64,000 nucleotides of DNA from Sphaerodactylus townsendi (lineage: Eukaryota), in NCBI RefSeq assembly GCF_021028975.2, contig NC_059426.1, positions 140,864,001 to 140,928,000 on the forward strand, in the 5' to 3' direction. The translations under genes were made by a program, and so were the position numbers. Positions 19,090 through 57,200 of this stretch are shown in pieces; within the stretch, counting starts at the first letter, position 1, and the number at the start of each line of letters is the position of its first letter. The notes under the pieces are model-generated. The model did no database searches, was not told the DNA's origin, and was given only the letters and a program-made list of their open reading frames with translations.

Positions 19090-36952
<17,863 letters not shown>

Positions 36953-40599: not shown

Positions 40600-43500
40600 A
40601 TGGAGTCGACTGTCGAGGAATTGATGCCCTGCCTTTTGCCTGTGGAGGACTGTGACATCCCGGAGGATTTCGACCCTACCGTGCCCCCCAGGACACCCCA
40701 AGAGTATTTAAAGCGGGTTCAGTAAGTGGGTCGAGAGTCTGCAGGGTTGGGAAAGGGGCTGCCCGCCCCCGGGTGAGTGGAAAGAGCGGGCTGGGTTTGA
40801 TCGGACCCTCCTTTTGGAGACGGCCATGCAGCTGTCCCATACCGATGCTAAGGGTTATCTGGATCGGATCGCCCCTTCTAGTACACCCACAGTTTCCTTA
40901 TGGTTCAACGGGGCAGCGCTTCCCTTGATAAACAAGCGCGTTAGGTTCTGCCTGGGTTTGGCACTTAATATCACTATATGATCTTAATGAAGAATGTGGT
41001 TGTTATATGCTCAAGGCTTGTGGAGTGAAGGTACATTTATTTGCCTTAGTAGCCATATTCTGCTTATGTTCATCTTTTAGCATTGCTTGTCTGAAGATGC
41101 TTGCCAGTAGTATTGCATCCTTAAATAAATGGAGATAAAATCTAGTGAACTTAATGCAGTGCAGGTGCCCTTTTTTCTGAGATTCACTCTGTGCTAGCAG
41201 GCATCCATTTGATCAGCTGCAGAAGGTTTTCAGAATATTACATGTGGTGGCATTAAGAACACTTTAGTCCTATGGTGAAGGATTCTGATTCTCTAATCTC
41301 AGTCACAACCTGTTCTGCCACTAGACAGAAAACAGCCTGGAAATAAAGCTGCTTCAAGAAAAAAAAAGAGAACAAAAACTGAATCCCACAAGAAAAGCTA
41401 GATTTTAAAAAATAGAAGTAAAGACTTTATGAGAAAGATTTTATTGCCTTCAAAACGTCTGCTGCAGGTCTGTGAATCCAAACCTTCCATTATTTACAAG
41501 GTCATAAGAATGTGGACAGCTAGAATTCAAGCCATATGTTCATCAGCAAGAGTTTAGAAATAATTATGAGAGAGTGCTCTCAGGGCAGAGTTGCTGTCTC
41601 CAAGTGAAGTTTTTGTTTGCATGAACATAAATGATGTGAAGAAAGTTTTAGCTGCTTTGCTTCTGTCTCTCATTTGGTATTTAAAAACAGCAGGGTCAGA
41701 AAAAAAAGATGGCACCCCCTACTGAGAACTGGGCAGATAATAGCTGACAGATCAGTGTTCCAAATAAGATTCTTGTTGAAAGTTTAAGCTTTGAGAGTTC
41801 ATGCTGCAGTACAGCAAACAAATTGTTGGGAATATTGGTGTATAGAAAATATAGTTTGGTTTTAATTTGTCAGTACTGATTCTGTTTGTTATGGTCACTA
41901 TCAAAAAGTCCAGATTCTATCAAAGGCTCATTCCGCATGGGCCAAAAACAGCAGTGTGAAAATGGTGTAAAAGGGTTTATACCGTTTTCACACCATTTTC
42001 ACATCACTGTTTTTGGCCCATGCGGAATCTGCCAAAGAGAAAGCAGTACAGAAGGTCTGTGGCAGGCCAGCTGGGACAGAAGAGTAGTTGTGGTAATTAA
42101 AAGTCATTTTGTGGTGTTAGTCATGTAAAAGAATCTCTTCAGATGTGAAAAATACAAGCATTCTTAGATAATTTCTGTACTAAATTGGAAGACATTTTTT
42201 AAAAAATAGGACGTTTGTTTTCTTGTTTTGTAGGATTGAAGCTGCAAAATGCCCAGATGTTGTTGTGGCCCAGATAGACCCCAGAAAACTGAAAAAGAAA
42301 CAGACAGTGAATATTTCAGTAAGTTCTGAGGAAATGTAGTGACAGCATTTCTTTTGCATGTTTCAAGGAGCTCCTGGCAGCAGTAAACATTGAGATTCTC
42401 TCTCCTCATTGAAGTTTCTCAACAGCAGTGACTCATCCAAGTTCACACAATGAGCTTCATAGCTGAGCAAAGATTGGTACACTTTTGCCCTGAACCATCT
42501 TACTCTGGCCCTCTAGCCCCTATACCATAATGTTCTTTGTTCATTTAAGACTGGACTGTGGTGGAAACATAATGAGAGAACAAAACTTCAAGGTTTGTTC
42601 TGCAAGATTACCTTATCCAAATTGCACAAAAGTTTTACAGGATTACCAGTAGCAAAAACAGAGTTCATGTAAATTGGTATCTAGTCTTACAGAACAAACT
42701 TGGAATTGCAGGAATTGCAGTAATGCTGGTAAATCTTAAAGGTGTTGCAAGGGTGCATCCATGTAGTACAAACAATTGTTGAATACAACTCTGAATCAAC
42801 ATTTTCACTGCTGCTGGGGTTTTGGTTACTAATCAATTTTCACTTGATGTCCACTATAGTCATTGCTTCTCTTCTCTCTGAATCTGTAAATTTAGCCATA
42901 AATAATGTTGACTGGGTCAGGGTGTACAGATTTTAGCTAGTTATTTCTACTAATTATTCTAGCTAGCAAGGCCAGGCTTTCTCATATCTTGATCCACAGA
43001 GGCAAAACAAATGCAATGCATGGCAAACTGGTTTTATAAGGGGAGGAGTTCTAGACAAGGTGATATGCTTTGGAAGCAGCCCTTTCTCTCTGACTCTTGT
43101 CCTACCTAGCATGTGATATAGCCTGCCACCATTTTGAAAGAAGTACACTCTGCATTGTGTGGATTTTCCAGCCATACAACCTAGGAAACCCACAACAACC
43201 TAGTGATTCTGGCCGTGAAAGCCTTCAAAAGTACACTCTACCTCTGCCCATGAATCTGGCCCCAGTGTGTGCTAAAGTCTGTCCCTGTTGGTTGTGACTT
43301 TGGATGGCTATGAATTGCTATAGCAACCATATTTTATTTTATTTATAGACTGCCTTTTAGCTGAGACTCAAGGCAAATTACACCATTTAAAAAACAATCC
43401 AATCAGGTGACAAAAGACCTCCAATAAATAGTACAGTAGAACTAGAACTGCAGAATTGGAAAACAGTGCAACAGAAAGTATAACAGACTGTCTAAGACAT

Positions 43501-46500
43501 GGCATACCATAATACAGAAAGTGGGTTTCAAAAGTAGAAGACAGTGCTGTGGAACTCTTGAGTGTTTCATCTACTTCCATGTGATTTAAATTTTCCCATC
43601 TTATCTACAGTGAATCAACTTGTTGTGTGACCTTACAGCCCTCTCTCTCTCTCTCTCTCTCTCAGCCTAATTTACTTCAAGTGTTGTAATGACCAGAGAA
43701 AATGCAGTAGTATTAATGCATGGGTCAAAAGAGAACCTCAGAATTTATATTGTCAATCATTAATAACTTAATTAATCCCCTTTCTTTTCATAGCTCTCGG
43801 GATGCCTCCCTGCCCCTGAAGGATATTCACCAACTCTGAGATGGCAGCAACAACAAGTGTCTCACTTTTCTGCTGTTCGCCAGGTGACTCTCTTTTTCCT
43901 ACTCCAGCCCTGAAGCCATTCTTACTTGGAAGGTGCCTAATCTCATAATACGCATTTTCAAGAGAGTCACTCATTACTTTGTATTGTCGAAGGCTTTCAC
44001 GACCGGAATCACTTGGGTGCTGTGTGGTTTCCGGGCTGTATGGCCGTGTTCTAGCAGCATTCTCTCCTGACGTTTCGCCTGCATCTGTGGCTGGCATCTT
44101 CAGAGGATCCTCTGAAGATGCCAGCCACAGATGCAGGCGAAACGTCAGGAGAGAATGCTGCTAGAACACGGCCATACAGCCCGGAAACCACACAGCACCC
44201 AACTCATTACTTTGTTTATGGAAACAAGGCTTTGGGAACCTTCACTTCTGTTTTTTTCTTGATATTGCAAAACTAATAAAAATCATGATGTTAGGGCTGG
44301 GATCCTGTACATTTTTTTCTGCTTGCACTTCTCTCCATCAGCTGCAGAGCCCACTCCTCTTGTGCTGGACGCATATTGGCTCCTTAAAAGACAGTGTTGC
44401 ATGAGCAGAAGTGTGCTGCGTAACAGCACTGCCTCAGGAGTGACGAAAGAGGTGTACAAGTCAAAAGAAAGTTTAGGAGGTTCATCATTTGATGAAAGCA
44501 TCTTAGTTGGTACATTGAACATGTTGTTGGTGGAATTAGGCGGATTATTATTTTTTTATAAACTTGCACCTGAGTAAAAACAGTTCTGAAGAAAAAGGGA
44601 TCATTTTATTTTTAGGTAATATGTCTATTACAAAGAGTCTGTGAGTGAAAGGGATACCTCTCCTCATGCCATTTGCCACTTGTGTAAATATCAGTATTTT
44701 TAATTGGGTTTTAAATATCTACTTGATTAATTGGGGGCACCTTTAGAATTGGTCAGAAGGCTTTTAATCAGTCAATCTGAATAACCGTACTAAACGCCAA
44801 AACCGTAGAGAAAATTTTCTAGATTTTACTTTTTCAATTTTCCAGAGTGTGAACAAACACAGGGACCACTGGAAGTCCCAGCATTTGGACAGTAACGTTA
44901 CAATGGTGAGTATAATTTGACATTGTAATCTTGATCAACAGATCTCTTGCTCAGGAATAATGCAGAGCAAGCTGTCTTGAGAACTACAGCCCCTTCTGGA
45001 ACATTTCTTTTTTTCTTCTCATTTAGTAATGCTGAGATACTACCACAGTACAGTATCTTATTGTAAACTAAACATACAGGATTAACATTTGTGTGTGAGG
45101 GTATTTCATGTAACCTTGGGGGAGGGGGCCCGCAATATTTTGTTTTATTAAAATAAGAAAAACATCTTGTTTGCTTGCTGCCCTCAGCCCAAATCAGATG
45201 ACGAAGAAGGCTGGAAAAAATTTTGTCTGGGTGAAAAGTTGTATTTAAATACAGGTGTTCAAGTATCCAATGATGAAAATCAAGGAATTGATTATGTACA
45301 GGTGAGTAGCAAGCACAAAAGTTGCTAGCCTGTACATCTACAATTGATTTAGATTTCCTACGAATAATTTTGTATCTTAACGAATTCTGATGATTTCCCC
45401 CTCCCCACCCCCAGGTTGGCTTTCCTCCACTCCTGAGCATTGTTAGCAGAATGAACCAGGTATCTCTGTTACTGTCATTCTTAAGTGGGGTTAGTGGCAA
45501 GGTCTTTGTAGCTCTTCTGCTACTTATGTAGACATCCTTCCATAAGGGTAGTCTGGTGCACATGATAGTGCCACTTAGACATGGAACACGTGAGCACGCA
45601 GGCCTTACTTTCACACAACAGCCTTGTCATCTGCAGGGGCAACTGCTCAGTCTCCTTCTGTCCCAATTAGTGGGGAGTGAGAGTTTGTGCAGGCACTTCA
45701 TTGGTGCCGTTGTCTCTGCAGATGATCAGGCTGTCACATGGAGCCAAGAACGAGGCCCACACGCTCACTGTCTCTCCTCATATGTTTGGTGAATGCAAGC
45801 TAATACTTGCAAAAATTATATATAGTGTCATACAGATAAGCTTGATGAAAATCATAGTGTGATTATAATTTACCCAAAATGATTTTTACATCTGTATGTA
45901 TCTAGGACTATTTGTCCCTTGTAGTTTGATCCTCCAGTTTGTGGGCCAATGGAAAAAATGTTTAGGGTAGACTCTGCCAGCTACTACCTCATAAGATAAC
46001 CAAATATGAAACTGCATTGGAGTCAGTAGCTTTGCATGTGAACCTAAGTAGAGGTTGCTATTTATTTAAATACCTGGTTTCTGGATTACTCCCTAGTGTT
46101 TATGTGAAACATCAGATACAAGTATAGTTCTTATCTGATAATGCAATACAAGGACTATGAGGAAGCGTTCCTATAGAGAACTGTTTTTCATAGCTTCTTC
46201 TTTTCTTCTTAAAAGGCAACAGTAACCAGTGTCTTGGAATATCTGATAAACTGGTTTTCGGAGAAGGAATTTACTTCAGAACTGGTACCTTTTACTTCAT
46301 GTGTTCATGTTGAAAAGCAAACTATCCCACTTGAAGCTTAGCTGAATTAGAAATATTAGAATTAGAAATTAATTAGAAATATTTTAGAAATTAATTATTT
46401 TGGAAATTAATTAGAAATATTTGATCGCTTGCTTTGTTACTACATCCCTACCCCCACTTTTCATCCATCATGAAACAGAAGGAGACACTCATGAGAGTTA

Positions 46501-54270: not shown

Positions 54271-57200
54271 TTAAATCTTCTGTATCATCACCTGAAATTT
54301 ACCTGTCAAAAGAAAAAACGAAAGAATTTATAAAGTATCTACTTTGCTTACCTGAAGCAACTATTTATCAAGTTCAAAAAAAGTTACCTGGGTCTATACT
54401 ATTCTCTTGTACAATACATCCAGCCAAATCTGAGTTGGCTACATCTTTTGCAAGATTTGTAGCGCAACCCTAAACAGAGCTGAGCCCTTCGAAGTCAACT
54501 GAAGTCAATGGTCTTAGAAGGGTATAATTAACTCATAGAGACCACAGATGACGAGGAATTAAAGGCAAGAGATCAGTAGAAGTGGTCTGCCAATGTCTTC
54601 CTCTGGTTACCTTGGCCCGAAAAGTATCTGGCTGTCTTCAATAGAATGCTCTGGTGGAATGTTCTGTCAAACGAGACCAGCGCCGTAAAGGACTTCTTTC
54701 AATTCCGCAGGGCCTGCAAGACAGCTATTCCACCAGGCCTATAGTTGAGGGCAGCAGTGCGGTGTAATAGGCCTACCTTGGCTGGCTTCCTCATTCCCCT
54801 ATCCTTTTTTTTTTTAGTCAAATCAAAGGGGGGCAGTAAGTTGTTCCAACCCTGGTTAAGTTTTTATTGCCATTTGTATGTTGTTTATTAGATGATGTCT
54901 TTATATTACTATTTCATATTGCATGCTATGTAATCTTATTGTACACCTATGTTGTGAGCTGCTCCGAGCCCGCTTCAGTAGGAGAGAGTGGAATATTAAA
55001 TCAAAATAATAATAACAAAACCTGTATTGTCAAAGGCTTTTGCAGCTGGAATCAACTGGCTGTTGTGGATTTTCCAGGCTGCATGGTCATGGTCTAGTAG
55101 TTTCTGCTCCTAACATTTTCCCTGCATCCATGGCAAAAATGGGTGAAAGGAGCAAAAACTATTACACCACAGGCACACAACCTGGAAAACCCACTACAGT
55201 CAATAATAATAATAGCAACCTTAGACTTCATTGGAGTACACTGAAAGTGGATTGAAAGTGCATTATTCTGCAGGTGCAGAAGGGGTCTCAACATACAGAG
55301 AACAGACAAAGAAATCCATGATATCACATGCAAATTGAATTTTAGAAATATCTGGGGACCTCAGCCAAAGCCTAGTCCTTTTAACTAGTCTAAAAAAAAT
55401 AACCTAACTGCCACTTTCCACTCTGGAATTCATCAGTTTATGCACAAAATATGGAAACTGCAGTTCAGAGACATTAAAGAGGCCTTTAAATACAAGCAAA
55501 TTACTTGGGAGAGGAAGGCTTCTTGACATAGATCAGGACCTCAGTATGTCTTAATCCAGCCTTAATTGCTGTTGTGAGTCTTCCTTATAACACTCTTAAC
55601 AGCAACAGTTTTATAGCAGCTGATAATCAACCGCTGGTCTCCCCAGTTCTAAAAAATGCACTGAGTAACAACTTCTTTATACTAAGGCACAGCTATATAA
55701 AAGCTTTTTTTTCCTCAGACCAAAAGGGCACTTACATGCAGGCATTGCTGAAACTTCTGCTGTCACAATACTCTTTATTCCCAAATTTGACAAAGCGCCT
55801 CTGATCAATCCACAAGTAAATGCCAAATACTGAAATGTAATAAATACATAAAGAATGGCTAAACAGGACTACATTTTTGCTTGTTGAGGTAGGACAGGTT
55901 GCTTCTGCCAGCCCAAAAAGTGAAGACTGAATTACATAATAACCTCATTACACATGCAAGAAGCAAAGATAGAAGGCCAATGAGCAGATCTCTTTTATTA
56001 ATACTAGCATGCATACAAAAATATGAACCAAACCACTAATGTATACTGAACAGGAGAAGCTATGTAAAATATACTTCCCCTCCAATATTTATCTGCATAA
56101 TTTGCAATAATCTTTTTCCACATAGCATATATGAAGATACGAAAAACATTCTGAACAACACTGCTAGCTTATTAATGATCAAGGTGAACTTTTGCCCTCT
56201 CCAGTTTTGAGAAGAATTCTCTGCAGGTATTCATTGTCATTCTTAATGGGGGGGGGGGGGTGTCATTCTAATGGAAACCTCTTCAACATCTATACCAGTG
56301 GTGGCGAACCTATGGCACGGGTGCCAGAGGTGGCACTCAGAGCCCTCTCTGTGGGCACGCATGCACAGAGTTCGTCATGTGATAATAGTGTAATTATTTC
56401 AGGGAGATTATTAGCATTAAACCTAAGACCTAGTTTTGGGGAAGCAGTGTAGGTAACCTGGTTAAGCGCTGCTAAACCCTACTGATTTTCATGGGAAGAA
56501 CTAAAGCGTGATCCTTTACCTGGGAGTAAGCTCGATTGCTGGCAATGGGGCTTGCTTCTGAGTAAACCCTCCTAGGGTTGTGATTCACCCATTCGAAGCG
56601 TTGCACAGTTGCTTCAAAGCAAAGCCACCGACTACCACCAAGCTTACTCCCGAGTAATGCGCACCTTGGAGCCAACCGTTTTTCTATACTAAAACCTCAG
56701 TATTCAGGTTAAATTGTCATGTTGGCACTTTGCGATAAATAAGTGGGGTTTGGGTTGCAGTTTGGGCACTCGGTCTTGAAAAGGTTCGCCATCACTGATC
56801 TATACAGATCTTTAGACACCAATGCATGCAAGTCAGTGCAGGTGTTGTGTCCAACACAAGGACAATAAATGTGCAGAAGGGTCAGGGACAGTGTGATCAA
56901 GACCGCCCCCCCCCCGCCCCCCCATGCATAGAAAATATTTTGTTCATAAAGCTTATGTTTCAACTCATTAGGAAGTTTGTATCCACTATTACTAACCTCA
57001 ATAGGCTATGATGCAATACCTACCTTGGGTGCATGTTCCAAATACTGTTTACCAGCAGACATTTGAGTCAGGAGACGGAATTTGTTGTCCTGGAGTACAT
57101 AGATGCCCTACAAAAATGAATAATCATCTCCATTTCAGACAGAAGACATGACTACTCACAGAAGAATGATACGCTAACATGCCAATCCAGCTACAAATCA

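What the first reader, a model, noticed from the sequence alone, without database searches (positions are those of the whole stretch)
43969..44215. Perfect 190-bp loopless palindrome with back-to-back hammerhead ribozyme motifs in GEMIN2 intron 3
Seen: 44013-44202 reads as an exact palindrome centred on GGATCC (44107/44108), inside a 14-bp TSD, about 100 nt after exon 3. Each strand carries a minimal type I hammerhead (stem I TCCT/AGGA, CTGAAGA, stem II GCC/GGC, GAAA, GTC cleavage triplet). Established: Penelope-like elements carry such minimal hammerheads in their terminal repeats and often insert with inverted ends. Inference: a young, ORF-less, bidirectional ribozyme cassette. Whichever strand is transcribed contains a ribozyme plus its own antisense lock, giving a 95-bp dsRNA and cruciform-prone DNA. 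It may be a retrozyme-like non-autonomous family.
Basis: partly seen in the sequence, partly recalled or inferred. Interest (0 to 1): 0.7.

Follow-up and report, generated by a model that had tools for sequence, protein, structure and literature searches.

The report
Back-to-back Penelope retrotransposon insertion stub
This mirror-image DNA in an intron of a GEMIN2-like gene is a young insertion of two short head-to-head pieces from the start of a very common Penelope-type jumping gene, likely built afresh when both cut DNA strands copied the same RNA start, so it is an ordinary insertion footprint and likely not a ribozyme element that spreads as a unit.

Summary
The 190-bp palindrome, 14-bp duplication and minimal hammerhead motifs are real. 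The insert is asymmetric: one arm has a 30-nt extra 'tail'. The long arm matches at 127 of 128 bases the start of an 819-aa RT + GIY-YIG ORF in the same genome, a close relative of Anolis Poseidon PAc. The arm ends (+118, +85 from the ATG) fit PAc's published reverse-transcription starts and tail. The site is empty in two related organisms. 973 loci share the exact centre, but only 12 of 100 tail-selected copies and 2 of 26 sharing this copy's rare variant have it; the rest have varied junctions clustered at -12. The same centre occurs in two subfamilies. So it is the commonest single outcome of insertion, not a propagating retrozyme. Likely mechanism: both target strands prime on one RNA, run off near -12 (a TATA/initiator-like site, inferred) and join through self-complementary GATC. 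The layout is published, and this scan found the same thing in several other genomes. No RNA data; cleavage untested.

The parts
43794..43883 (+). 90-bp coding exon of a GEMIN2/SIP1 gene upstream of the insertion (probably exon 3; numbering recalled)
   Evidence: SIP1, E 0.018; AG..GT frame; downstream exon above Pfam cut-off
43969..43982 (+). Left copy of the 14-bp target-site duplication; last 3 bases also match the element end (+116..+118)
   Evidence: one copy only at the empty site in runs X4 and X6
43980..44109 (-). Long arm: element positions -12 to +118 (ATG = +1 at 44097), antisense to the host gene
   Evidence: 127 of 128 bases equal to the full-ORF copy L182
43983..44012 (-). One-sided 30-nt Penelope 'tail' (+86 to +115), outside the palindrome
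   Evidence: tail defined in PMC11167929 and PMC8557442
44013..44202 (.). Perfect 190-bp loopless palindrome
44065..44107 (-). Minimal type I hammerhead motif of the long arm (predicted cut after 44069)
   Evidence: mirror of the + strand motif; activity untested
44106..44109 (.). Self-complementary GATC (-12..-9) shared by both arms: the 4-nt overlap that makes the junction loopless
   Evidence: native upstream sequence differs from the mirror image beyond this GATC
44106..44202 (+). Short arm: element positions -12 to +85 (ATG at 44118; first 28 codons), sense to the host gene
44108..44150 (+). Minimal type I hammerhead motif in the host pre-mRNA sense (predicted cut after C44146, +29); predicted to be paired in the hairpin
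   Evidence: same position relative to ATG as the tested PAc ribozyme
44202..44215 (+). Right copy of the target-site duplication
44846..44905 (+). Predicted next exon (60 bp), closing the 962-bp host intron
   Evidence: predicted from splice motifs only

Best explanation
It is a young insertion of two short head-to-head copies of the start of an abundant Poseidon-type Penelope retrotransposon, flanked by a target-site duplication, and was likely built in place when both nicked DNA strands primed reverse transcription on the same RNA. Shown: identity of the arms with the element's first 118 and 85 coding bases plus 12 upstream; the duplication; the empty site in relatives; the spread of junction types. 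Inferred steps: (1) the GIY-YIG endonuclease cuts both strands about 12-14 bp apart; (2) one 3' end primes near +118 and the other near +85, which leaves the 30-nt tail on one side only; (3) both cDNAs usually run off near -12, most likely the 5' end of the RNA, since a TATA-like box starts 28 nt before an initiator-like TCA at -15..-13; (4) the two cDNA 3' ends both finish in GATC, anneal to each other and are filled in, giving a loopless palindrome in about one insertion in eight, while other outcomes give overlaps, deletions or templated filler. The hammerhead is a passenger of the element's 5' end and is predicted to be locked in a 95-bp hairpin in the host pre-mRNA.
For: Long arm equals the 5' end of an 819-aa ORF with RVT_1 (E 1e-12), YVDD, DKG and GIY-YIG motifs. 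By my eye count it matches 98 of 118 bases of the PAc template printed in PMC11167929. That paper reports cutting and extension of both strands, RT starts 111-118 nt into the ORF, and a tail lying between two RT starts. Among the first 100 tail hits on contig C1: tail ends +112..+122 in all 100; an inverted arm in 82, whose outer end is +82..+91 in 63; at least one arm ends at -15..-10 in 62; perfect GATC junction in 12. Of 66 with a near-complete inverted arm, 28 have junction overlap, 3 are blunt, 35 have extra bases; the tail arm reaches further 5' in 13, the other arm in 28. Of 40 perfect-centre copies, 27 are tail+short, 0 tail+tail, 1 short+short, 12 other. Genome-wide exact counts: 20,990 arms cover -11..+11; 5,014 continue with the native 6 bases, 2,522 with the mirror junction, 1,368 with ATG. 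Of all 26 copies with this copy's rare tail base, 2 have the perfect centre. T15C is in both arms in 6 and one arm in 2 of 116 pairs, against 0.42 expected if arms were drawn independently; all non-CpG variants: 20 shared vs 1.5 expected. TSD 12-14 bp in 75 of 95. Empty site in X4 and X6, both junctions in X3.
Against: No RNA evidence for a 5' end at -12; the TATA/initiator reading is by eye, and D. virilis Penelope has a TATA-less internal promoter with an intron ending at hammerhead helix I, so the AG at -13/-12 could be a splice acceptor instead. Shared variants between arms are also predicted by a single cDNA folding back. Unequal arms could arise by later deletion across an unstable palindrome. 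The position of PAc's second RT start is in a figure I could not see; +85 is matched through the tail definition only. Target-element overlap at the outer ends averages 2.0 and 1.6 nt, against a one-sided chance figure of 0.46 and 0.32 (about double that if both sides are counted), after dropping 12 and 21 negative rows of 95; this is a modest departure from the 'no homology' in vitro result. The samples come from one contig arm (C1) and need an exact 34-mer or 38-mer, so they favour young copies; the 100 hits include one locus counted from both arms (L048) and one duplicated segment (L126/L127).
Confidence: 0.75

Rival explanations
1. Fold-back self-priming: one cDNA primed at +118 runs to -12, snaps back at GATC (perhaps with a cap-templated extra C), copies itself, and is cut near +85 by the endonuclease; the hairpin is then opened.
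For: Explains shared variants in both arms and the fixed centre. PMC3846280 reads palindromes at inverted Penelope junctions as self-priming. D. virilis endonuclease needs the tail for recognition (as cited).
Against: The tail-less arm reaches further 5' than the tail arm in 28 of 66 copies, once to -761 against -17, which a copy of the tail arm cannot do without later deletion. 35 of 66 junctions have extra bases, many templated from nearby element sequence, as expected when two free ends are joined. PAc extends both strands in vitro.
Confidence: 0.15
2. The palindrome is a non-autonomous, MITE- or retrozyme-like unit that is itself transcribed and retrotransposed by the Poseidon protein.
For: 973 loci carry the exact 38-bp centre; copies have distinct 12-14 bp duplications; the long arm holds an RT start site.
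Against: Only 12 of 100 tail-selected and 2 of 26 same-variant copies have the perfect centre. The centre occurs in two subfamilies with concordant arms (L137, L141, L147, L150, L151, L157, L162 versus the rest). The same inverted +85 arm caps ORF-bearing copies (L187, L189, L195, L196). The long arm stops at +118, short of the first 172 nt of ORF that PAc needs in vitro. No tandem hammerhead units.
Confidence: 0.05
3. The stop at -12 marks a 3' splice site: the template is a spliced RNA, and cDNAs end or switch at a very short first exon.
For: A pyrimidine-rich run ending in CAG lies directly before -11. In D. virilis the intron ends at hammerhead helix I. 1,368 arms carry the same non-native ATG at -14..-12.
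Against: No common sequence upstream of that ATG in the 29 contexts printed from 30 loci; several are explained by templated filler from the element's own GAAGATG. No GT..AG joint ending at -11 among the joints listed (those runs look like DNA, so this is weak).
Confidence: 0.1
4. Assembly artefact (fold-back chimera).
For: About 8-9 of 40 perfect-centre copies have one garbled arm (by eye), so palindromes trouble this assembly.
Against: A duplication flanks the insert; both junctions are in short-read contigs of a second sample of the same organism (X3, 0 and 1 differences); relatives have the clean empty site. No single contig spans the whole insert, so the centre itself rests on the assembly.
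Confidence: 0.01

Closest known systems
Poseidon element of Anolis carolinensis, PAc (Frangieh et al. 2024, PMC11167929; main text and methods read, two figure-only supplements seen as text)
   Same: About 83% identical over +1..+118 (eye count against the printed template); ATG at the start of stem II, cut site 26 nt after the start codon, RT start at 111-118, tail at one end, AT-rich targets (71% AT in 56 duplications).
   Different: PAc's printed template has no GATC at this position, so the loopless centre is particular to this subfamily. The paper's text does not describe a 5' stop near -12 or palindromic stubs; its Fig. S2 and .gbk file were not readable.
Endonuclease-bearing Penelope-like insertions with an inverted, 5'-truncated pLTR, one-sided 30-40 bp tail and TSD (Craig et al. 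2021, PMC8557442; Arkhipova et al. 2013, PMC3846280; passages read)
   Same: Head-to-head inverted arrangement, tail on one end, palindrome at the inverted junction, TATA plus initiator-like motifs in the pLTR (Pen2a_Av).
   Different: Here both arms are only about 100-130 nt, the unit has no ORF body, and the exact junction recurs about a thousand times, which allows a count of outcomes.
Minimal hammerheads of metazoan PLEs (Cervera and de la Pena 2014, PMC4209133; results and discussion read)
   Same: 4-bp helix I, unpaired base before stem II, G-C first pair of stem II, palindromic ACGU in place of helix III; that paper notes pairs on opposite strands 100-700 bp apart and little monomer activity.
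   Different: The two motifs here abut each other; only one is sense in any transcript, so they cannot form the dimer with each other.
Animal non-LTR retrozymes (bioRxiv 10.64898/2026.07.22.740005; first part and passages read; PMC7229834 listing only)
   Same: Type I hammerhead, PLE-derived, no full ORF.
   Different: Retrozymes are head-to-tail tandem units with a hammerhead in each, giving circular RNAs; this is head-to-head with one sense ribozyme.
LINE-1 twin priming (recalled, not read here)
   Same: Two target strands prime on one RNA and give an inversion inside a TSD.
   Different: In L1 the second primer copies a different, internal part of the RNA; here both primers start 30 nt apart and copy the same stretch, giving a mirror image.

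Membership tests
EN+ Penelope-like element, Penelope/Poseidon clade (parent family) | Single ORF with RT followed by C-terminal GIY-YIG endonuclease | tested here: met
   L182 819 aa: RVT_1 at 355-537, E 1e-12; DKG 280, YVDD 506, GVY..YIG 700-714, HERHC 727. Pfam did not name the GIY-YIG domain; it is called from motifs.
EN+ Penelope-like element, Penelope/Poseidon clade (parent family) | pLTR formed by the ORF start repeated after the 3' UTR | tested here: met
   L129 and L183-L186: endonuclease end, 3' UTR, then the same arm sequence.
EN+ Penelope-like element, Penelope/Poseidon clade (parent family) | Inverted 5'-truncated copy at the 5' end, one-sided 30-40 bp tail, TSD | tested here: met
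   82 of 100 tail hits have an inverted arm; 27 of 40 perfect-centre copies are tail+short, none tail+tail; TSD 12-14 bp in 75 of 95.
EN+ Penelope-like element, Penelope/Poseidon clade (parent family) | Placement in the Poseidon clade by RT phylogeny | not tested
   No reference PLE proteins were held; assignment rests on about 83% nucleotide identity to PAc over 118 nt (eye count).
Minimal type I hammerhead ribozyme of PLEs | Core CUGANGA, GAAA, NUH triplet, stems I and II | tested here: met
   Motif positions; helix I forms in the isolated-arm fold (z -1.06, not significant). Rfam models do not detect it.
Minimal type I hammerhead ribozyme of PLEs | Self-cleavage | not testable with these tools
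   The PAc homologue cleaves only with PAc protein. Only 2 of 182 arm ends here lie at +30, the 3' side of the cut.
Non-LTR retrozyme | Head-to-tail tandem units, each with a hammerhead | tested here: not met
   Head-to-head arms, no tandem unit at this locus.
Non-LTR retrozyme | Circular or multimeric RNA intermediates | not testable with these tools
   No RNA holder listed.
Non-autonomous element propagating as a fixed unit (MITE/SINE-like) | Constant internal structure among related copies | tested here: not met
   12 of 100 and 2 of 26 have the perfect centre; centre recurs in two subfamilies.

The most novel reading that the evidence does not exclude
These stubs are a genomic record of a hidden step in Penelope transposition: a protein dimer primes both cut strands on one RNA at two starts 30 nt apart, both short cDNAs run off the transcript's 5' end like a retroviral strong-stop product, and their fate (annealing through GATC, end joining, or a jump to the RNA's 3' part) decides between a stub and a long copy. 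With some 20,000 young arms in one genome, the model can be tested by counting and by one in vitro assay with the available PAc system.
Probability: 0.5. Interest if true: 0.5.

Novelty: new member of a known kind. Interest (0 to 1): 0.3.

Why it matters
As a single locus it matters little: one of about a thousand identical junctions, a passenger in an intron. As a class it bears on an open question, how Penelope elements make their inverted ends and one-sided tails (called undefined in PMC8557442). The counts here favour priming of both target strands on one sense RNA with run-off at a fixed point, over the antisense self-priming proposed in PMC3846280. It also means this genome carries on the order of a thousand perfect 95-bp hairpins, a predicted load of double-stranded RNA and of hard-to-assemble DNA. 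The scan has already reported the same reading for other genomes, so this adds a case, not a new idea.

Tried and rejected
Rfam scans: only generic miRNA-hairpin hits below gathering score, no hammerhead family; the miRNA hits reflect the perfect stem and were rejected. Pfam on the endonuclease fragment: no hit. Solved-structure search: only weak RT matches, best E 6e-4. Expression: no RNA holder listed; three guessed-RNA runs from other organisms behaved like genomic DNA and showed no splice joint at -11 among listed joints, which is uninformative. In run X1 the summed contig depth rises about 13-fold between L129 3870-3889 and 3910-3929, at the -12 boundary, but the tool warns this is no copy number, other subfamilies contribute, and X1 may be the source sample, so it is not used as support. 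Run X5 gave a mixed signal (right junction with 0 differences, two exon versions) and was left out. A common first exon upstream of the ATG-GATCC class: none. The automated count of garbled arms was confounded by indels and is not used. The first 30 loci were best hits to the whole insert and so biased to the same centre; they were not used for junction frequencies but are among the 145 pairs and 95 TSD rows. Earlier-findings search by sequence returned nothing. Six paper searches listed no paper whose title or abstract start describes a fixed run-off point with GATC-sealed stubs; subscription papers and Repbase reports are outside that library, and the PAc Fig. S2 and consensus file could not be read and may already show this boundary.

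Full report
Observation. The stretch 44013-44202 is an exact palindrome with 95-bp arms and no loop, the only one with arms of 8 bp or more in the window. A 14-bp direct repeat lies at 43969-43982 and 44202-44215. Between the left repeat and the palindrome are 30 further bases (43983-44012) with no mirror partner. Each arm holds a minimal type I hammerhead motif (positions); Rfam's models do not detect it. The insert starts 99 nt after a 90-bp exon that matches Pfam SIP1 weakly; another exon of the gene matches above the cut-off, and flanking exons of 85 and 60 bp are predicted. The name GEMIN2 follows from SIP1; the exon number is from recalled human exon sizes.

What the arms are. Read on the minus strand, the long arm equals at 127 of 128 bases the start of an 819-aa ORF elsewhere in the genome (L182). 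That ORF has an RVT_1 domain (E 1e-12) and DKG, YVDD and GIY-YIG motifs. With the ATG as +1, the long arm runs from -12 to +118 and the short arm from -12 to +85; they overlap in GATC (-12..-9). The native sequence upstream of GATC, seen in 14 of 100 copies and in L129, is not the mirror image, so the centre is a junction. The element is close to the Anolis Poseidon element PAc: 98 of 118 bases by my eye count against the template printed in PMC11167929. That paper (main text and methods read) reports that PAc cuts and extends both strands, starts reverse transcription 111-118 nt into the ORF, that the 30-40 nt tail lies between two RT start sites, that the ORF begins at stem II with the cut 26 nt after the start codon, and that the ribozyme cleaves only with protein and is not needed for insertion in vitro. 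All these positions match the window copy; the exact second start is in a figure I could not see.

Age. Contigs of a second sample of the same organism carry both junctions (X3, 0 and 1 differences). Contigs of two related organisms (X4, X6) run straight from 43968 to 44202, the empty site with one copy of the repeat. No contig spans the whole insert. The fourth run laid (X5) was mixed and not used.

Census. 973 loci carry the exact 38-bp centre and 3,309 the exact tail 34-mer. I took the first 100 of those 3,309 tail hits, all on contig C1; they include one locus counted from both arms and one duplicated segment. An inverted arm is present in 82; its outer end is +82..+91 in 63 and a second tail in 3; the perfect GATC junction is found in 12; at least one arm ends at -15..-10 in 62. 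Of 182 inner arm ends, 53 are at -12, 14 at -13, 8 at -11. Among 66 copies with a near-complete inverted arm, 28 junctions overlap, 3 are blunt and 35 have extra bases; arms end within 5 nt of each other in 25, the tail arm is longer in 13, the other in 28. Genome-wide, 20,990 arms hold the 22-mer from -11 to +11; 5,014 continue into native sequence, 2,522 into the mirror junction and 1,368 into ATG; mutation and other subfamilies account for part of the remainder. Of 40 perfect-centre copies taken in genome order (40 of the 50 listed; the others were skipped, most being already held), 27 have one tail arm and one short arm, none two tails, 1 two short arms, 12 other. Duplications are 12-14 bp in 75 of 95 scored.

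Does the palindrome spread as a unit? Four results say no. The window copy has a rare tail base shared by 26 copies genome-wide; only 2 of the 26, itself included, have the perfect centre; some of these may be independent mutations. The perfect centre occurs in a second subfamily, with the diagnostic bases in both arms (seven copies). The same inverted arm ending at +85 caps copies that run on into the ORF, with near but not identical junctions (L187, L189, L195, L196 among 30 loci). And the long arm stops short of the 172 nt of ORF that PAc needs in vitro. It also fails the retrozyme definition of tandem hammerhead units.

How it likely forms. Both arms usually come from one template: T15C is in both arms in 6 and in one arm in 2 of 116 pairs, against 0.42 expected if arms were independent; over all non-CpG sites 20 shared against 1.5 (145 pairs; this set includes the 30 best-hit loci). 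The outer ends sit at the two priming positions, with a small overlap between target and element (means 2.0 and 1.6 nt, rough null 0.5-0.9 and 0.3-0.6, after dropping 12 and 21 negative rows of 95). I infer that each cut strand primes a cDNA, one at +118 and one at +85, that both run off near -12, and that their GATC ends anneal and are filled in; other repair outcomes give the other junctions. The cause of the stop is inferred: a TATA-like run begins 28 nt before an initiator-like TCA at -15..-13, a similar pair is described for Adineta Pen2a, and a TCA lies at the same place in the PAc template. Against this, D. virilis Penelope has a TATA-less promoter and an intron that ends at hammerhead helix I; the AG at -13/-12 could be an acceptor, though no shared first exon appears upstream of the ATG class. 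A fold-back of one cDNA, the reading of PMC3846280, explains shared variants equally well but not easily a longer tail-less arm. Copies do not pile up at the ribozyme cut (2 of 182 ends at +30).

What it would do in the host. On the gene's sense strand the antisense arm is made first and the sense hammerhead second; the predicted fold is one 93-bp stem at -209 kcal/mol, so the ribozyme is predicted to be locked, and it has no dimer partner in the same RNA. No RNA data were available, so editing, siRNAs and splicing effects are untested.

Comparison and verdict. The layout (inverted 5'-truncated pLTR, one-sided tail, TSD, junction palindromes) is described in PMC8557442 and PMC3846280 (passages), and opposite-strand pairs of minimal hammerheads in PMC4209133 (results and discussion). 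Six searches listed nothing whose title or abstract start describes the fixed run-off and GATC seal; unread supplements of PMC11167929 (Fig. S2, consensus file) and papers outside the library may bear on this. Earlier notes of this scan give the same reading for other genomes; they are unchecked AI notes, not support, and my reading was recorded before I saw them. Verdict: a new member of a known kind, interest 0.3; the mechanistic reading, if confirmed by 5' end mapping and one in vitro assay, would deserve about 0.5.

Noticed in passing
window 43171-43235 with 43980-44044: An older Poseidon tail fragment in the upstream intron is 78% complementary over 65 nt to the new long arm, including its unpaired tail. 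The pair brackets the 90-bp in-frame exon, so it could pair across the exon in pre-mRNA; any effect on skipping or circularisation is a guess.
   Followed up: no
window 30816-31037: A sibling insertion of the same family with an 11-bp duplication: long arm from -12, short arm cut at about +9, so a different junction 13 kb away.
   Followed up: partly
window 29319-29436, 29937-30008, 21800-21860, 55026-55134: Older, about 75% identical arms of a related subfamily; the first two lie back to back with about 500 bp between them.
   Followed up: no
genome-wide; L217-L246: 1,368 arms carry a non-native ATG at -14..-12 with no common sequence further up. Some are templated filler; the rest are unexplained (untemplated addition at run-off is one guess).
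   Followed up: partly
L182 3968-4199 and 6897-7129: The full-ORF copy is flanked by a 233-bp direct repeat, 96% identical, instead of a short duplication, and its 3' UTR is cut short.
   Followed up: no
L136, L139, L142, L143, L149, L153, L167, L168: One arm of the palindrome is garbled while the other is clean, suggesting long-read or polishing errors in hairpins in this assembly.
   Followed up: no
L037, L113, L125, L248: Long poly-C or poly-G tracts with a periodic A or T abut the inner end of some arms; artefact or real addition not determined.
   Followed up: no
L148: Two A-to-G changes and one A-to-C change are mirrored in both arms of one copy, compatible with a variant or edited template RNA.
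   Followed up: no
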